The position numbers and the translations under genes were made by a program. This document shows positions 13,367-48,433 of a stretch of 64,000 nucleotides of DNA, one piece after another. Every line of letters starts with the position of its first letter. The stretch's first letter is position 1. The notes below the pieces were generated by a model. That model was not told the origin of the DNA, did not search any database, and was given only the letters and a program-made list of their open reading frames with translations. The DNA comes from Apostichopus japonicus (taxonomy: Eukaryota): positions 11,423,891 through 11,487,890 of the forward strand of contig NC_092564.1 of the NCBI RefSeq assembly GCF_037975245.1. Direction: 5' to 3'.

Positions 13367-13492
13367 TCAAAACTCGAGGATATAGACTTGCCCTAGGTGA
13401 TCGCCGCAAACCAGTCTTAGCTTCGAGTTGTCACTGTGTAACGATGTCGTATTGAGGGACGTAACAGGAGCTTGACAATTAAACTGTCCCAC
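13367..13492 (-). CDS. TEP1: TEP1 terminal exon: VGQFNCQAPVTSLNTTSLHSDNSKLRLVCGDHLGQVYILEF*. TGA stop at 13367-13369.
   Basis: Acceptor ccttttccatcag|GTGGGA. Matches the human C-terminus ...LQLAVGDVQGNVYFLNWE*. Confidence 0.85.
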   Translation of the reverse strand: MGQFNCQAPVTSLNTTSLHSDNSKLRLVCGDHLGQVYILEF

Positions 13493-13956
13493 CTGATGGA
13501 AAAGGGGAAAACGAAGAAGAAAAACAAATGCAATTTCCAAGATTAATGTCATGATAAATTTACACAACAGAATATGCAGAATATGGCCATATGGGTCCTA
13601 TCTCCCTAAACAACGGTGGTTTTGTGACGGAGTCAATCTTCATTATAATATCAACAGTATCTGAAATGTAAATGGCTTTAAAAAATTAAAATAATGTACT
13701 ATCAGATATTATTCTTTCTGATTGATAAAAACAAAAGTATATGAGATAACACATCTTTTTATTTGTCTATTGATTTTAGTGTTGTTTCAGAGGATAATAA
13801 ATATATCTGTTTCCATAACTTGGAATAATGCTATAAAATATGTGAACAGATAATCAATATTAAGTGCTGCCTGCTTTCTTTGATCATAGAGTTGTGACAA
13901 GAGCCTTGACATTTCTTTATTTGGACTTGTCGCAGCTTCAAACAGATCTCCTTTAC

Positions 13957-14079
13957 CTGCATGAGGTCACTGCCGTCACCTTCTTCTCGTTCCTTCCATA
14001 GTTTTATTTTAGCGTCCTCTGAGGCAGTGATGATGTACCCCTCCACAGTATTCACCGCTGTGACCTTATCACCATGAAC
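13957..14079 (-). CDS. TEP1: TEP1 penultimate exon: VHGDKVTAVNTVEGYIITASEDAKIKLWKEREEGDGSDLMQ.
   Basis: Acceptor ctccggcacag|GTTCAT and donor ATGCAG|gtaaag. Matches human LLVTASKDRDVKLWERPSMQ. Confidence 0.85.
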
Positions 14080-14559
14080 CTGTGCCGGAGAGAATAATAA
14101 TGATCAATTGTATGTTTGACTCACTATTGTTTGTTAGAACAACAGACTAAGTTATTTAGATTAGAGTTCTTCTTATGGGGCCCTCCATGGGGAATTTCAA
14201 TCTCTTCTAATCCTTTTTTCACTTCTGTACTAAGCTAAATTACTAGAGACAATTATTTGTACTATGGAAGACCATTATTACTACCATACATAACTATTAT
14301 TACCACAGGAGACCATAATTATTACTATAAGAAGTACAAGAGTCCATATCACTGCTGCACGGAACCATTATTGTTATTAGAAAAAGAATCCCCATATTTG
14401 TTAGTGTAGGAGACCATTACCATGATTAAAATGAATATTTAGTTAAAAAGGCCGTTGTTAGCATCATTATAACTAGAGCAGACAATAATTACTTAATAGA
14501 AGAAAAGATCATTATTATGATGACCAGCGACGATGTCAAACATTGACAAATAAATGAGC

Positions 14560-15655
14560 AATGCATATAATATATAGAGATAGTGTGACGTCTGACCGAT
14601 GCCTTCAGTCAGACAAAGCAAGGATATTAATATGTAGAGATAGTGTCATCTGAGTGATGCCTTCAGTCAGAAACAGCAAACATTACAATATGCACAGATA
14701 GTGCCATCTGATTGATGCCTTCAGTCACACACAGCAAGAATTACAATATGCAGAGATAGTGCCATCTGATGGGTGCCTTCACTCAGACACAGCAATGATT
14801 ATTATATATAGAGAAAGTGTGACGTCTGACTGATGCCTTCAGTCAGACTTGGCATGAATTCTAATATCTAGAGATAGTGACATATGATGGATGCCTTCAG
14901 TCAGACACAGCAATGATTATAATATATAGAGATAGTGTGACCTCTGACTGATGCCTTCAGTCAGACACAGCAATGATAATAATATATAGAGATAGTGTGA
15001 CCTCTGACTGATGCCTTCAGCCAGACACAGCAATGATTATAGTATATAGAGATAGTGTGATGTATGACTGATGCCTTCAGTCAGACATGGCATGAATTCT
15101 AATATCTAGAGATAGTGACATATGATGGATGCCTTCAGTCAGACACAGCAATGATTATAATATATAGAGATAGTGTGACCTCTGACTGATGCCTTCAGTC
15201 AGACACAGCAATGATAATAATATATAGAGATAGTGTGACCTCTGACTGATGCCTTCAGCCAGACACAGCAATGATTATAGTATATAGAGATAGTGTGATG
15301 TATGACTGATGCCTTCAGTCAGACTTGGCATGAATTCTAATATCTAGAGATAGTGACATATGATGGATGCCTTCAGTCAGACACAGCAATGATTATAATA
15401 TATAGAGATAGTGTGACCTCTGACTGATGCCTTCAGTCAGACACAGCAATGATAATAATATATAGAGATAGTGTGACCTCTGACTGATGCCTTCAGCCAG
15501 ACACAGCAATGATTATAGTATATAGAGATAGTGTGATGTATGACTGATGCCTTCAGTCAGACATGGCATGAACTCTAATATCTAGAGATAGTGACATATG
15601 ATGGATGCCTTCAGTCAAATACATCTACTAAATAAAGCTGATTGCCTTGTAATAC
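14560..15655. repeat. Minisatellite in the TEP1 3' intron, about 60-bp unit with a 240-bp higher-order repeat x about 4. It ends at the donor of exon 15656-15826.
   Basis: Unit atagtgtgacctctgactgatgccttcagtcagacacagcaatgattataatatatagag. The HOR marker (..ggcatgaattctaatatctagagatagtgacatatgatggatgcc) recurs at about 14840, 15080, 15320 and 15560. Confidence 0.88.
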
Positions 15656-15826
15656 CTGTTTGGTTCTCTGCTCCCGTTGGATACGCTGGTCATCAATATA
15701 AATAGATCCGTCTTCCAGTCCGTAGACTATCACAGACTGTCCTATCTTTTGTTCATCACATTTCCACATCGAGAGGCTACAAACCACTGAGGGCAGCTCA
15801 ACGTCAGTTTTAAATTTATGCAGGAC
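15656..15826 (-). CDS. TEP1: TEP1 exon: VLHKFKTDVELPSVVCSLSMWKCDEQKIGQSVIVYGLEDGSIYIDDQRIQREQRTKQ.
   Basis: Acceptor ctgataaaaatag|GTCCTG and donor AAACAG|gtatta. Matches human ...LQLAVGD-region WD repeat. Confidence 0.8.
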
Positions 15827-45843: not shown

Positions 45844-47149
45844 CTACATAACAAAAGAAAAGAAAAGGTGGATAAAAATAATGATATGAAACGAAAATCA
45901 TAGCAATTTCATACTCAACCTATTTTAACCATCTAACAAACTTCTACAAAATATCGCATCTTCTACTAATAGTAAATGACTCTGGCTTTAGAGGAGATGG
46001 TGAAATAGTTTGTGATACTGAGTGTGAATGTAACACTGAAATAATGTTGTCCCTGGTCAAGATTCACTACTTTGAAATGAGCACTGCAAGATATAAATGT
46101 CAATTCCATTGCACACTGAAGGACTAAAACTACTATTTATCAGTTGCTATGTTTCTTGAAATTACCAGCTTTTTCAGAGATTTCTGTCCAGTTTTGTAAA
46201 AATTGTTAGTTGCACCATTTTATTCTTCTCATCATCATCTTAAAAAGTCCCCATAATTGTTTCCTAAATATTTTAAACATTCTTCTACTCTTGGTATGAA
46301 TCTTCTGGCAAGCTCAAGTCATACTACAGACCTTACTCTATTGTAATTTAAGGGGAAAATATGGGGGAAATTTACTAGAGTGTGCATCTACTTCTCAATG
46401 ACAACAAATTAACCACGTACTTCCTAGTAAATTACATTTCTCCTTATGCAGGATATGAAAACAATGAAAAGAACGAACGAACCAGGATCACCTGAGCATG
46501 TGGTTTTTCAAACTCAGAATAATCATCTGGTTCAACCGGTTGTCGTAAATTGCACAAAATGGTGCAACACAAACATTTGCTACTACCACAGCATATCTTG
46601 CACCATCCATGAAAATGGGTCAAAAGTGTTTGATAATATTTCTTCTGATGACCTGCCTGATCAAGCTTACAATTTCCATTGTCTGCATGGCAAGGTCAAA
46701 TTATAATTTGAATTGGTGAAACAACCAAGTTTTAAATGTTTTGGACAAGAAGGCAACCCCTAAAATCCTGTTATATACAGTACCATACCTTTAGCTCAAA
46801 GCAGAAGAGACAGGTTAAGAATTAGGGTACAGTAATAAATTAAGGCTATTCTTATTTAACCAGATATTACTATTTGTACCAGTCTATCTGTTCAACCTAC
46901 TGAGAGTACATCACTCATCAGCATTTGTAGCATTTTCTATTGAAAATCCTCACTTATAGAAATTTACGAAAATCCAAACATTTGTCAGTTTTCACTTTGG
47001 ATTTTCGTTTGTTGAACTGATCCTATCAAACGGAGAATCTGTTTTAATCTGTTCACCTGTTTTTCACCCAATGGTGATCAAGCACTGTTTGGATTAATTG
47101 GAATTGTTGGAGAATATGAAGATCCAATGGTTGTCAATTTGGGAAAGGT

Positions 47150-47434
47150 CATCCCACTCAGCAGCAGCTGGTTAGCATATTACTACAATAGGTGTAATAT
47201 AAATAAAGCATTGCTCAGAATACTGCCATGCAGTATTACACTAATGGCCAATCAACAAACGCACTAGTTCGTGCGGGCTATACCATACCTTGAGTAGAAA
47301 TTTGGGATTCGAGATCTTCCAAACAGAGCTGGTTAGCATATTACTACAATAGGTGTAATATAAATGAAGCATCACTCAGAATACTGCCATGCAGTCTAAT
47401 AACAAGTCTATTGGCCAATCAACAAATACCATAC
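47150..47434. repeat. Intronic tandem duplication (about 130-180 bp) that copies the last bases and splice donor of TEP1 exon 47435-47569 (ataccttgagtagaaatt). It creates decoy donors in the intron downstream.
   Basis: ...gctggttagcatattactacaataggtgtaatataaat(a/g)aagcat..cagaatactgccatgcagt...ccataccttgagtagaaatt appears twice (47160-47300 and 47330-47450). Confidence 0.8.
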
Positions 47435-47569
47435 CTTGAGTAGAAATTCGGGGTCAAACTGTACAACTTCTTCAAAAGCAGCAGATATTGCCTTCCTGTT
47501 TGCATTTGTTGGATCGTGAAAGTCTGCTTGACCAATCAGAGATGCACTCACTGAGTTGATGAAATCTTG
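47435..47569 (-). CDS. TEP1: TEP1 exon, TROVE N-terminal part: QDFINSVSASLIGQADFHDPTNANRKAISAAFEEVVQFDPEFLLK.
   Basis: Acceptor caaatttgcag|CAAGAT and donor CTCAAG|gtatgg. Matches human TLAAIFEICRELALLEPEFILK. Confidence 0.8.
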
Positions 47570-47689
47570 CTGCAAATTTGAGATAACAGATAAAACTTAA
47601 TTACGGTTACAAGAAGAATAATTTCACAACAGATCTCTATTAAAATACAACCATACTGTATCTTACAAGTTTAGTAATGAAACTTCTAC

Positions 47690-48433
47690 CTGAATTTTCT
47701 CTTCAAGATCTGTATCAGAATACATACATTCTACTACATAGTTTAAACTCACCTTCTTCCTTTGAAATACCAGCTTTGATTCAAACTCTAATTTCTCTTC
47801 CTCCTCTTGAAAACGGAGCTTGCCAAAACTATCAATATCTGCTGATTCAATTTCTTCCTCGGTCTCCATGGTGAAGTCATACTCTGGAAAGGCAAAGTCT
47901 GAGGATATAGTTCTCTCCCAGACTGGCATCTCCTCAATAACATCTTGTTTCTGGAGGTTACTGCCAAGATAGCTGGACGAATAACTCCCCCCGGAGACTG
48001 CTAGCTTGTGCTGCTGTTGGTGAGGGTCAACAAGACCATGTTGAAATTTCTTAGTATCATTCGATATAAGTCTCTTCTTGGCCGAACTTGTCTTCTGACT
48101 CAAAAGGTTACTACTCAACTGCAATGTGTACCCACTGAGGCTTTCTACCGAACTTGAAGGAGAAAACTTTTGGGTTGGTTTTCGTTTTAATGAAGTTAAT
48201 GACGGACCAAGAAGAAGAGACTTTGAACCTTTGCCACTATCAGAAGTCTTTCTTATGGAGGATTTCTGACCTGTTGAATTTGTTTTCTTTTCACACAAAA
48301 GAGTTGGTTGATATTCCTTGAGTAACTTGTTTTCTGTAGTGGTCTTCTCTTTCCCATGTATCATACTAGATGGTGATGACAGCAAGGATGACCTCAGAAG
48401 TGGGTTGGAGAGGTCTCTGCTCCTCAAATCCAT
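47690..48433 (-). CDS. TEP1: TEP1 first coding exon found (MDLRSRDLSNPLL...DTDLEEKIQ). Ser-rich, diverged N-terminus.
   Basis: 256-aa ORF beginning with ATG at 48433. Donor AAAATTCAG|gtagaa. More 5' coding or UTR exons cannot be excluded. Confidence 0.55.

What the first reader, a model, noticed from the sequence alone, without database searches (positions are those of the whole stretch)
13367..48433. Complete TEP1 (telomerase/vault component) ortholog with an intact TROVE-DUF4062-NACHT-WD40 architecture
The 49-exon manual model is phase-consistent end to end. Its 8055 coding nt are divisible by 3. It is collinear with human TEP1 from the TROVE domain through the C-terminal ...VYFLNWE-like end. 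This gives a usable gene model for an invertebrate TEP1 and shows the vault/telomerase-associated scaffold is conserved here. TEP1 is a STAND-type NTPase with the same DUF4062-NACHT-WD logic as NWD1/2.
Basis: partly seen in the sequence, partly recalled or inferred. Interest (0 to 1): 0.5.

Follow-up and report, generated by a model that had tools for sequence, protein, structure and literature searches.

The report
Sea cucumber TEP1 gene, already annotated
The region holds a complete, expressed copy of the vault/telomerase protein TEP1 from the sea cucumber Apostichopus japonicus.

Summary
The gene is real and lies on the minus strand exactly where stated (ATG at 48433, stop ending at 13367). 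My final model has 48 coding exons, 7,848 nt and 2,615 aa. It is 100% identical (0 mismatches) to RefSeq XP_071825534.1, 'telomerase protein component 1-like [Apostichopus japonicus]'. The architecture is TROVE, vWA-like DUF5920, DUF4062 (now known as a TIR-like NADase), NACHT, helical region, then about 970 aa of WD40 including both TEP1-specific propeller families. It aligns end to end with TEP1 from molluscs, annelids, Trichoplax, Amoebozoa and a frog. A spliced RNA-derived contig confirms the last 14 splice junctions.

Its figures (49 exons, 8,055 nt) are 207 nt too long. Phase-compatible decoy ORFs sit in introns (243 nt at 24535-24293, 171 nt at 44827-44657). The true 65-nt exon 14 has a GC-AG intron that GT-only reasoning misses.

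Every residue shown to be essential for human TEP1 NADase activity is conserved (catalytic Glu = E980), so an active NADase is predicted.

Novelty: already known. Interest: low.

The parts
47753..48433 (-). Exon 1 (681 nt, aa 1-227). Holds the ATG at 48433, a Ser/Lys-rich poorly conserved N-terminus, and the start of TROVE (from aa 210).
   Evidence: ORF with an in-frame stop 4 codons upstream. Donor is AAG|gtgagt. Translation is identical to RefSeq P0360. Orthologue occupancy is only 0.44.
47435..47569 (-). Exon 2 (135 nt, aa 228-272), TROVE.
45682..45843 (-). Exon 3 (162 nt, aa 273-326), TROVE.
   Evidence: tblastn with P0017 gives 70% identity. Also.
45399..45495 (-). Exon 4 (97 nt, aa 327-358), TROVE.
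44913..45141 (-). Exon 5 (229 nt, aa 359-434), TROVE with a Lys/Glu-rich low-complexity insert.
   Evidence: It splices directly to exon 6; the 171-nt ORF at 44827-44657 is a decoy.
43947..44104 (-). Exon 6 (158 nt, aa 435-487), TROVE. This is the most conserved exon, with mean identity 0.74 to 13 orthologues.
43053..43256 (-). Exon 7 (204 nt, aa 488-555), TROVE.
42138..42291 (-). Exon 8 (154 nt, aa 556-606). Carries an RG/RGG-rich insert (GGFRGRGGRGRGRGRGRGGGG) inside TROVE.
   Evidence: It aligns with RG-rich inserts of Tegillarca and Patella TEP1. RG boxes occur in 26 of 119 orthologues. Also.
41449..41632 (-). Exon 9 (184 nt, aa 607-668). End of TROVE.
40769..40921 (-). Exon 10 (153 nt, aa 669-719), vWA-like DUF5920.
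40163..40237 (-). Exon 11 (75 nt, aa 720-744), DUF5920, variable stretch.
   Evidence: Orthologue occupancy 0.92, identity 0.10. Also.
39578..39723 (-). Exon 12 (146 nt, aa 745-792), DUF5920.
38659..38815 (-). Exon 13 (157 nt, aa 793-845). End of DUF5920.
37958..38022 (-). Exon 14 (65 nt, aa 846-866), linker 'TEKPALSNSVDVKIRDGPPVQ(R)'. It is followed by a GC-AG intron (donor CAGAG|gcaagt).
   Evidence: This exon is required to reproduce RefSeq P0360 exactly. Its 'KPAL' motif and linker length fit the orthologues. My GT-only model missed it.
37414..37590 (-). Exon 15 (177 nt, aa 867-925). Start of the DUF4062/TeTIR NADase domain. Holds F874, R886 and the RWG loop (914-916).
   Evidence: PDB 11gz_A (human TEP1 domain) matches at E=4e-62. 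Also.
36635..36871 (-). Exon 16 (237 nt, aa 926-1004), NADase core. Holds C931, R948 and the catalytic E980.
35736..35849 (-). Exon 17 (114 nt, aa 1005-1042), NADase domain.
35189..35309 (-). Exon 18 (121 nt, aa 1043-1083). End of the NADase domain.
34675..34857 (-). Exon 19 (183 nt, aa 1084-1144). Start of NACHT. Holds Walker A, GQQGCGKS (1134-1141).
33873..34039 (-). Exon 20 (167 nt, aa 1145-1199), NACHT.
33281..33431 (-). Exon 21 (151 nt, aa 1200-1250), NACHT. Holds Walker B, IIVDGLD (1224-1230).
32727..32906 (-). Exon 22 (180 nt, aa 1251-1310). End of NACHT.
32326..32418 (-). Exon 23 (93 nt, aa 1311-1341).
31329..31461 (-). Exon 24 (133 nt, aa 1342-1385), winged-helix region (HTH_NWD1-like).
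30714..30894 (-). Exon 25 (181 nt, aa 1386-1445), winged-helix region.
29927..30033 (-). Exon 26 (107 nt, aa 1446-1481).
28861..29354 (-). Exon 27 (494 nt, aa 1482-1646). Helical domain with a weak APAF1_C-like match.
27987..28082 (-). Exon 28 (96 nt, aa 1647-1678). First WD40 blade.
27708..27832 (-). Exon 29 (125 nt, aa 1679-1719), WD40.
27115..27370 (-). Exon 30 (256 nt, aa 1720-1805), WD40.
26446..26565 (-). Exon 31 (120 nt, aa 1806-1845), WD40.
25927..26025 (-). Exon 32 (99 nt, aa 1846-1878), WD40.
25049..25312 (-). Exon 33 (264 nt, aa 1879-1966), WD40. It splices directly to exon 34.
   Evidence: Orthologues P0122 and P0124 join the equivalent blades directly. The 243-nt ORF between them is absent from 13 orthologues. 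Also.
23821..23984 (-). Exon 34 (164 nt, aa 1967-2020), WD40. Start of the TEP1 second propeller.
   Evidence: The donor is confirmed by transcript contig L001. The acceptor is not: the 5' end of L001 runs unspliced into the intron up to 24120.
22960..23062 (-). Exon 35 (103 nt, aa 2021-2055), WD40.
   Evidence: Both junctions lie in the spliced contig L001/P0121. Also.
22372..22500 (-). Exon 36 (129 nt, aa 2056-2098), WD40.
21659..21766 (-). Exon 37 (108 nt, aa 2099-2134), WD40.
21291..21438 (-). Exon 38 (148 nt, aa 2135-2183), WD40.
19975..20156 (-). Exon 39 (182 nt, aa 2184-2244). Acidic/basic loop plus a WD40 blade.
19304..19423 (-). Exon 40 (120 nt, aa 2245-2284), WD40.
19028..19119 (-). 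Exon 41 (92 nt, aa 2285-2314), WD40.
18481..18559 (-). Exon 42 (79 nt, aa 2315-2341), WD40.
17645..17772 (-). Exon 43 (128 nt, aa 2342-2383), WD40.
16939..17112 (-). Exon 44 (174 nt, aa 2384-2441), WD40.
16153..16255 (-). Exon 45 (103 nt, aa 2442-2476), WD40.
15656..15826 (-). Exon 46 (171 nt, aa 2477-2533), WD40.
13957..14079 (-). Exon 47 (123 nt, aa 2534-2574), TEP1 C-terminal propeller.
13367..13492 (-). Exon 48 (126 nt, aa 2575-2615 plus the TGA stop at 13369-13367). Ends '...GDHLGQVYILEF'.

Best explanation
This is the single-copy TEP1 (telomerase protein component 1, the vault minor protein) gene of the sea cucumber Apostichopus japonicus. It has 48 coding exons on the minus strand and encodes 2,615 aa.

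Shown here:
- The gene is intact and at least its 3' third is transcribed and spliced.
- It has the full TEP1 domain order: N-terminal low-complexity tail, TROVE ring, vWA-like DUF5920, DUF4062/TeTIR/NIR domain, NACHT P-loop NTPase, winged-helix and helical region, then about 970 aa of WD40 propellers.

Inferred from work on mammalian and other TEP1 proteins:
- The TROVE plus vWA module binds a small Pol III vault RNA (and possibly telomerase RNA). It recruits and stabilises that RNA inside the MVP vault shell.
[quoted passage not shown] It probably becomes active when the protein is concentrated or oligomerised.
- The NACHT module supplies nucleotide-dependent switching and oligomerisation, as in other STAND/NLR-type proteins.
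- The WD40 propellers are the partner- or ligand-binding platform.
For: Identity:
- The model translates to a protein with 0 mismatches to RefSeq XP_071825534.1.

Domains:
- TROVE 354.6 bits (cut-off 23).
- DUF5920 46.5 bits (cut-off 27).
- DUF4062 63.3 bits (cut-off 24.7).
- WD40 316.8 bits.
- Beta-prop_TEP1_2nd 264 bits (cut-off 89).
- Beta-prop_TEP1_C 152 bits (cut-off 32).

Orthology:
- 119 mostly full-length TEP1 proteins were retrieved from echinoderm, molluscs, annelids, priapulid, Trichoplax, Amoebozoa and vertebrates.
- Single alignments span residues about 225-2602 at 38-42% identity.
- Frog TEP1 aligns at 31% over residues 186-2309, plus 2498-2600.

Expression:
- Logan contig SRR26696829_12718 is spliced at 14 of my junctions. 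It encodes 601 aa with 595 identical and no gaps.

NADase:
- The solved human TEP1 domain 11gz_A aligns at E=4e-62.
- The residues whose mutation abolishes human activity are F902, R914, R942, C959, R976 and E1008. All are conserved here as F874, R886, R914, C931, R948 and E980.
- NADase activity has been shown for TEP1 of human, mouse, zebrafish, sponge and Dictyostelium.

Vault and RNA role:
- TEP1 knockout mice lose vault RNA from vaults.
- Sea urchin vaults contain RNA and high-molecular-weight proteins, and the urchin genome has TEP1 and VPARP homologues.
Against: - Pfam NACHT (25.1 bits) and HTH_NWD1 (25.0 bits) fall just below their curated cut-offs of 26.7 and 27.
- No solved structure matches the NACHT-helical region by sequence.
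- The mammalian N-terminal 30-residue repeats (Pfam TEP1_N) are not detected. The first ~210 aa are poorly conserved.
- I saw transcript evidence only for exons 34-48. Exons 1-33 rest on identity with the RefSeq model and on orthologue collinearity.
- Nothing in the window tests vault association, RNA binding or enzymatic activity.
- No vault RNA or other Rfam family is in the window.
Confidence: 0.95

Rival explanations
1. Two or three neighbouring genes (a Ro60-like TROVE gene and an NWD-like DUF4062-NACHT-WD40 gene) have been wrongly merged into one model.
For: The older A. japonicus annotation split the locus into three proteins, PIK60220, PIK60221 and PIK60222, of 359, 1,207 and 405 aa.
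Against: Full-length TEP1 proteins from many phyla align to the model in one collinear alignment from TROVE to the C-terminus. A 3,064-nt metatranscriptome contig from another organism (P0017) encodes TROVE and DUF4062 in one ORF and matches exons 3-18 in order. All 47 introns are short (154-1,591 nt) and phase-compatible. The three old fragments align at only 94-99.8% with gaps, which is typical of a fragmented earlier annotation. The current RefSeq model is a single protein.
Confidence: 0.02
2. It is a TROVE-bearing paralogue of the NWD/NPHP3-type STAND family rather than the true TEP1 orthologue.
For: The DUF4062-NACHT core is shared with NWD1/2, and with many bacterial and archaeal proteins at 30-39% identity. 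A near-threshold HTH_NWD1 match is present.
Against: NWD1, NWD2, NPHP3 and the prokaryotic homologues lack the N-terminal TROVE-vWA extension, which is specific to TEP1 and its orthologues. The two TEP1-specific propeller families score far above their cut-offs. All top full-length hits are TEP1. It is identical to the RefSeq 'telomerase protein component 1-like' protein.
Confidence: 0.02
3. It is a decaying or unexpressed pseudogene that merely retains recognisable domains.
For: None, beyond the poorly conserved N-terminus.
Against: The 7,848-nt ORF over 48 exons has no frameshift or internal stop. The splice sites are 46 GT-AG plus one GC-AG with a consensus GCAAGT donor. A spliced RNA-derived contig covers 15 exons. 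The catalytic and P-loop residues are all conserved.
Confidence: 0.01

Closest known systems
RefSeq XP_071825534.1 / XP_071825535.1, telomerase protein component 1-like [Apostichopus japonicus]
   Same: The protein sequence is identical: 2,615 aa with 0 mismatches once the 65-nt exon 14 with its GC donor is used.
   Different: Nothing at protein level.
Human/mouse TEP1 (vault minor protein, telomerase-associated protein 1)
   Same: The domain order is the same: TROVE, vWA, TIR-like NADase, NACHT, WD40. The NADase domain aligns at E=4e-62 with the solved human domain, and all essential catalytic and substrate residues are conserved. The C-terminal 'GD.(L/Y)G.VY.L' motif is shared with the frog orthologue.
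   Different: Identity to a vertebrate (frog) TEP1 is only about 31%. No Pfam match to the mammalian N-terminal repeats was found. There is an RG/RGG box inside TROVE and a Lys/Glu-rich insert. R908 and R954 are both replaced by K.
NWD1, NWD2, NPHP3, TTC41 (animal DUF4062/TeTIR-NACHT STAND proteins)
   Same: They share the TIR-like domain directly upstream of a NACHT NTPase, followed by a helical region and WD40 or TPR repeats.
   Different: They lack the TROVE-vWA RNA-binding extension. Purified NWD1, NWD2 and NPHP3 showed little or no NADase activity.
Ro60 (TROVE2) and bacterial Rsr
   Same: They share the TROVE ring followed by a vWA-like domain that binds small Pol III RNAs. There is a weak sequence match to solved TROVE-domain proteins (9kop_A, E=2.8e-5).
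   Different: Ro60 stops after the vWA domain. It has no NADase, NACHT or WD40 modules.
Bacterial and archaeal DUF4062-NACHT defence proteins (Avs-type NIR effectors, Swarozyc and relatives)
   Same: They show 30-39% identity over the whole 474-aa DUF4062-NACHT core. They have the same NAD+-depleting effector logic.
   Different: They have no TROVE-vWA module. They are prokaryotic anti-phage systems. Three prokaryotic TeTIR homologues tested in isolation were inactive.

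Membership tests
TEP1 (telomerase protein component 1 / vault minor protein) | N-terminal TROVE domain | tested here: met
   Pfam PF05731 scores 354.6 bits (cut-off 23). It covers aa 210-641 and profile positions 3-442 of 442.
TEP1 (telomerase protein component 1 / vault minor protein) | vWA-like domain after TROVE (Pfam DUF5920) | tested here: met
   PF19334 scores 46.5 bits (cut-off 27) over aa 675-841.
TEP1 (telomerase protein component 1 / vault minor protein) | DUF4062/TeTIR/NIR TIR-like domain with a catalytic glutamate, directly upstream of NACHT | tested here: met
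   PF13271 scores 63.3 bits (cut-off 24.7). The solved human TEP1 domain 11gz_A matches at E=4e-62 over 212 aa. F874, R886, R914, C931, R948 and E980 equal human F902, R914, R942, C959, R976 and E1008.
TEP1 (telomerase protein component 1 / vault minor protein) | NACHT-type STAND NTPase with Walker A and Walker B motifs | tested here: inconclusive
   PF05729 scores 25.1 bits, just under its 26.7 cut-off, over profile positions 2-162 of 167. Walker A GQQGCGKS (1134-1141) and Walker B IIVDGLD (1224-1230) are intact. The region aligns with orthologues whose precomputed Pfam hits include PF05729. No solved structure is found by sequence. I regard the feature as present, but the curated threshold is not reached.
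TEP1 (telomerase protein component 1 / vault minor protein) | C-terminal WD40 propellers, including the TEP1-specific propeller families | tested here: met
   WD40 scores 316.8 bits. Beta-prop_TEP1_2nd scores 264 bits (cut-off 89). Beta-prop_TEP1_C scores 152 bits (cut-off 32) and reaches the C-terminus.
TEP1 (telomerase protein component 1 / vault minor protein) | End-to-end collinearity with recognised TEP1 orthologues | tested here: met
   Single BLASTP alignments run from aa 225-231 to 2602 against 2,360-2,490-aa TEP1 proteins. Frog TEP1 aligns over 186-2309 and 2498-2600. Of the 49 exons of the draft model, only one had no orthologous residues in a 13-orthologue alignment. That was the 243-nt decoy (24535-24293), which was then dropped.
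TEP1 (telomerase protein component 1 / vault minor protein) | N-terminal 30-residue repeats of mammalian TEP1 | tested here: not met
   No Pfam match in aa 1-209. Orthologue occupancy is 0.44 and identity 0.09 for exon 1. This feature is described for mammalian TEP1. Several invertebrate orthologues have only 0-54 aa before TROVE, so it does not define the family as a whole.
TEP1 (telomerase protein component 1 / vault minor protein) | Physical association with vault particles, vault RNA or telomerase RNA | not testable with these tools
   This needs biochemistry. Rfam found no vault RNA or any other family in the window.
TIR-like NADases (DUF4062/TeTIR/NIR) | NAD+ hydrolysis dependent on the conserved glutamate | not testable with these tools
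   Only residue conservation could be checked. Activity was shown experimentally for human, mouse, zebrafish, sponge and Dictyostelium TEP1.

The most novel reading that the evidence does not exclude
The RG/RGG box embedded in the TROVE domain (aa ~573-594, exon 8) may be an ancestral auxiliary RNA-binding or arginine-methylation module of TEP1. It recurs at or near this position in bivalve, gastropod, annelid, rotifer and amphioxus TEP1, and at the N-terminus of amoebozoan TEP1. It is missing from the two vertebrate sequences and the sea urchin sequence in my 13-orthologue alignment. If so, RNA selection or condensation by non-vertebrate TEP1 would differ from the mammalian paradigm. Together with the fully conserved NADase site, it would fit a reading of TEP1 as an RNA-sensing, NAD+-depleting NLR-like protein rather than a passive scaffold.
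Probability: 0.15. Interest if true: 0.3.

Novelty: already known. Interest (0 to 1): 0.1.

Why it matters
It matters little as a discovery. The gene is annotated in RefSeq, and TEP1 orthologues are known across animals and Amoebozoa. Echinoderm vaults and TEP1 homologues were reported in 2005.

Two modest points are useful.

1. It is a clean worked example that a manual exon chain which is 'phase-consistent and divisible by three' can still be wrong. Intronic decoy ORFs fit the phase, and a real exon with a GC donor is invisible to GT-only logic.

2. Since 2026, TEP1's DUF4062 has been known as an active TIR-like NADase. This echinoderm orthologue conserves every essential residue. It is therefore a predicted active enzyme and a possible comparative model for vault biology.

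Tried and rejected
- My GT-AG-only dynamic-programming gene model gave 50 exons. Three of its elements were rejected. The 171-nt exon at 44827-44657 is bridged by P0017. The 243-nt exon at 24535-24293 has poor splice sites and 0.01 occupancy in 13 orthologues. The 26-nt micro-exon at 38447-38422 is replaced by the RefSeq exon at 38022-37958.
- The first two homologue searches returned mostly fragments or generic WD40 proteins. Only the third gave full-length orthologues.
- The look-up of encoding contigs found nothing for P0360.
- A literature search for SRR26696829 found nothing.
- Rfam at gathering thresholds and ARAGORN found nothing in the 64 kb, so there is no vault RNA, Y RNA or tRNA gene nearby.
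- A sequence search of the NACHT-helical region against the PDB found nothing.
- Nested genes in introns are unlikely: the largest intron is 1,591 nt. I did not test this further.

Full report
**What is there**

The window is AT-rich (about 36% G+C). Between 13367 and 48433 the minus strand carries a long series of short open segments. Their translations are recognisably TROVE-, P-loop- and WD40-like. An ATG at 48433 opens a 681-nt exon, with an in-frame stop four codons upstream. The last open segment ends '...GDHLGQVYILEF*' at 13367.

**Building the model**

I trained a codon log-odds score on 45 unambiguous coding cores. I then ran a dynamic-programming exon chainer restricted to GT-AG introns. 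It returned 50 exons and 8,223 nt.

Three elements of that model proved wrong.

- A 171-nt exon (44827-44657) sits between two exons that the orthologue fragment P0017 matches as adjacent (its residues 162-188, then 188-241).
- A 243-nt exon (24535-24293, 'LHYSDDEGGGGGG...') has weak splice sites. Two orthologue fragments join the flanking WD blades directly. In a 13-orthologue MAFFT alignment it has occupancy 0.01 and identity 0.00, whereas every other exon has counterparts.
- A 26-nt micro-exon (38447-38422) was the best GT-AG option for the linker before the DUF4062 domain. It left the linker about 20 aa shorter than in orthologues.

**Independent evidence**

*Transcript.* A homologue search with the C-terminal region returned P0121. 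This is a 601-aa product of a 2,093-nt Logan contig from run SRR26696829. It matches the model at 595 of 601 residues with no gaps.

The contig aligns to the window in 15 blocks whose ends coincide with my exons 34-48. It derives from spliced RNA and confirms 14 junctions. Its first 136 nt continue unspliced into the intron upstream of exon 34, so it says nothing about the exon 33/34 junction.

*RefSeq.* The 90% cluster of P0121 contains XP_071825534.1/XP_071825535.1, 'telomerase protein component 1-like [Apostichopus japonicus]', 2,615 aa. It also contains three older fragmentary models, PIK60220, PIK60221 and PIK60222.

My model differed from the RefSeq protein only in the linker. I replaced the micro-exon with 38022-37958. 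This exon has acceptor ttcatttttcag|ACAG and donor CAGAG|gcaagt, so the intron is GC-AG. The result is 48 exons, 7,848 nt and 2,615 aa, with 0 mismatches to RefSeq.

The window therefore comes from the sea cucumber A. japonicus (Echinodermata, Holothuroidea). The gene is already annotated.

**What it is**

Pfam results on the final protein:

| Family | Score (bits) | Cut-off | Residues |
|---|---|---|---|
| TROVE | 354.6 | 23 | 210-641, whole profile |
| DUF5920 (vWA-like) | 46.5 | 27 | 675-841 |
| DUF4062 | 63.3 | 24.7 | 872-984 |
| NACHT | 25.1 | 26.7 | 1129-1293 |
| HTH_NWD1 | 25.0 | 27 | 1346-1467 |
| WD40 | 316.8 | 27 | about 1647-2615 |
| Beta-prop_TEP1_2nd | 264 | 89 | within the WD40 region |
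| Beta-prop_TEP1_C | 152 | 32 | reaches the C-terminus |

A weak APAF1_C-like helical match is also present. NACHT falls just below its cut-off, but Walker A (GQQGCGKS, 1134-1141) and Walker B (IIVDGLD, 1224-1230) are intact.

The third homologue search returned 119 mostly full-length TEP1 proteins. They come from an echinoderm, molluscs, annelids, a priapulid, Trichoplax, rotifers, Amoebozoa and vertebrates. Single alignments run from about residue 225 to 2602 at 38-42% identity. Frog TEP1 aligns at 31% in two collinear pieces. The C-terminal 'GD.LG.V..L' motif is shared.

This satisfies every sequence-testable criterion for TEP1 except two. The NACHT score is near-threshold. The mammal-type N-terminal repeats are absent, but several other invertebrate orthologues also have almost nothing before TROVE.

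**How it most likely works**

Established TEP1 biology comes from the literature, not from this window.

- TEP1 binds vault RNAs and telomerase RNA. It sits inside the vault. [quoted passage not shown]
- Sea urchin vaults resemble rat vaults and contain RNA and high-molecular-weight proteins. The urchin genome has TEP1 and VPARP homologues.
- Three 2026 preprints show that DUF4062 (also called TeTIR or NIR) is a TIR-like NADase. [quoted passage not shown] The activity is conserved in mouse, zebrafish, sponge and Dictyostelium TEP1.

The solved human domain (PDB 11gz_A) aligns to aa 868-1079 at E=4e-62. This lets me map the functional residues.

- F902, R914, R942, C959, R976 and E1008 correspond to F874, R886, R914, C931, R948 and E980. 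All are conserved.
- The less critical R908, and also R954, are both Lys here.

I therefore predict an active NADase. RNA binding by TROVE-vWA, NACHT-driven switching or oligomerisation, and WD40-mediated partner binding are inferred by homology only.

**Rivals**

- *A wrongly merged pair of genes.* The old three-piece annotation hints at this. It is contradicted by collinearity with single-chain orthologues, by a transcript from another organism joining TROVE to DUF4062, and by the current RefSeq model.
- *An NWD-type paralogue.* It is excluded by the TROVE-vWA extension and the TEP1-specific propellers.
- *A pseudogene.* It is excluded by the intact frame, the conserved catalytic residues and the spliced transcript.

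**Verdict**

Its exon count and coding length are not those of the RefSeq-identical model, which orthologue alignment and a spliced transcript also support. The gene is ordinary and already known.

**Noticed in passing**

Other observations are listed separately. They include the convergent methionyl-tRNA synthetase gene, a perfect 1.43-kb tandem duplication upstream of the start codon, intronic minisatellites and the RG box.

Noticed in passing
window 99-8244, + strand: These are 3' exons of a cytoplasmic methionyl-tRNA synthetase gene. The concatenated ORF pieces score Pfam tRNA-synt_1g 265 bits (profile positions 166-390 of 391, including the KFSKS motif) and WHEP-TRS 44.5 bits. The gene is convergent with TEP1, whose stop lies about 5 kb away.
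   Followed up: partly
window 49002-50431 and 50435-51864: A directly adjacent tandem duplication of 1,430 bp at 99.93% identity begins about 570 bp upstream of the TEP1 start codon. It is either a very recent duplication in the promoter or 5' region, or an assembly artefact.
   Followed up: partly
window 37956-37957 (donor of intron 14), exon 37958-38022: A GC-AG intron with a consensus GCAAGT donor follows exon 14. It is the only non-GT donor among the 47 introns, and it is why GT-only exon chaining fails here.
   Followed up: yes
window 24293-24535, 44657-44827 and 38422-38447, - strand: Three phase-compatible decoy 'exons' lie inside introns (243, 171 and 26 nt). They keep the frame open and can inflate a manual model. 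The 243-nt one contains a G11 run.
   Followed up: yes
window 14557-15617, 16607-16923, 17389-17520, 31483-31578, 40374-40597: There are minisatellites inside TEP1 introns. The largest has a 238-nt period with 4.5 copies at 93% identity, built from 60-nt subunits. The one at 16607-16923 starts 16 nt after the exon 44 donor.
   Followed up: no
window 1789-2631, 3627-5403, 10603-11009: Large tandem arrays lie in the MetRS introns and the intergenic space: 109 nt x 6, 122 nt x 14.6 at 93% identity, and 81 nt x 5 at 96% identity.
   Followed up: no
window 47426-47448 versus 47280-47302: The exon 2 donor junction (AATTTCTACTCAAG|GTATGGTAT, 23 nt) is duplicated exactly about 146 nt downstream inside intron 2. 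A second 15-nt piece is also duplicated. This creates a potential cryptic donor.
   Followed up: partly
L001 1-136 = window 24120-23985: The spliced transcript contig retains 136 nt of intron 33 at its 5' end. This is either an unspliced pre-mRNA fragment or intron retention. It leaves the exon 33/34 junction without direct RNA support.
   Followed up: partly
window 42138-42291 (exon 8, aa ~573-594): An RG/RGG box (GGFRGRGGRGRGRGRGRGGGG) lies inside the TROVE domain. RG-rich boxes occur in 26 of 119 retrieved TEP1 orthologues, including bivalves, gastropods, Capitella, Rotaria and Branchiostoma, and at the N-terminus in amoebozoans. They were not seen in the vertebrate or sea urchin sequences examined.
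   Followed up: partly
Logan proteins P0364, P0365 and P0366 versus exons 16 and 27: Further Logan contigs match single exons at 96-97.5% identity and then diverge. They probably come from unspliced or genomic reads of a divergent haplotype or a related holothurian.
   Followed up: no
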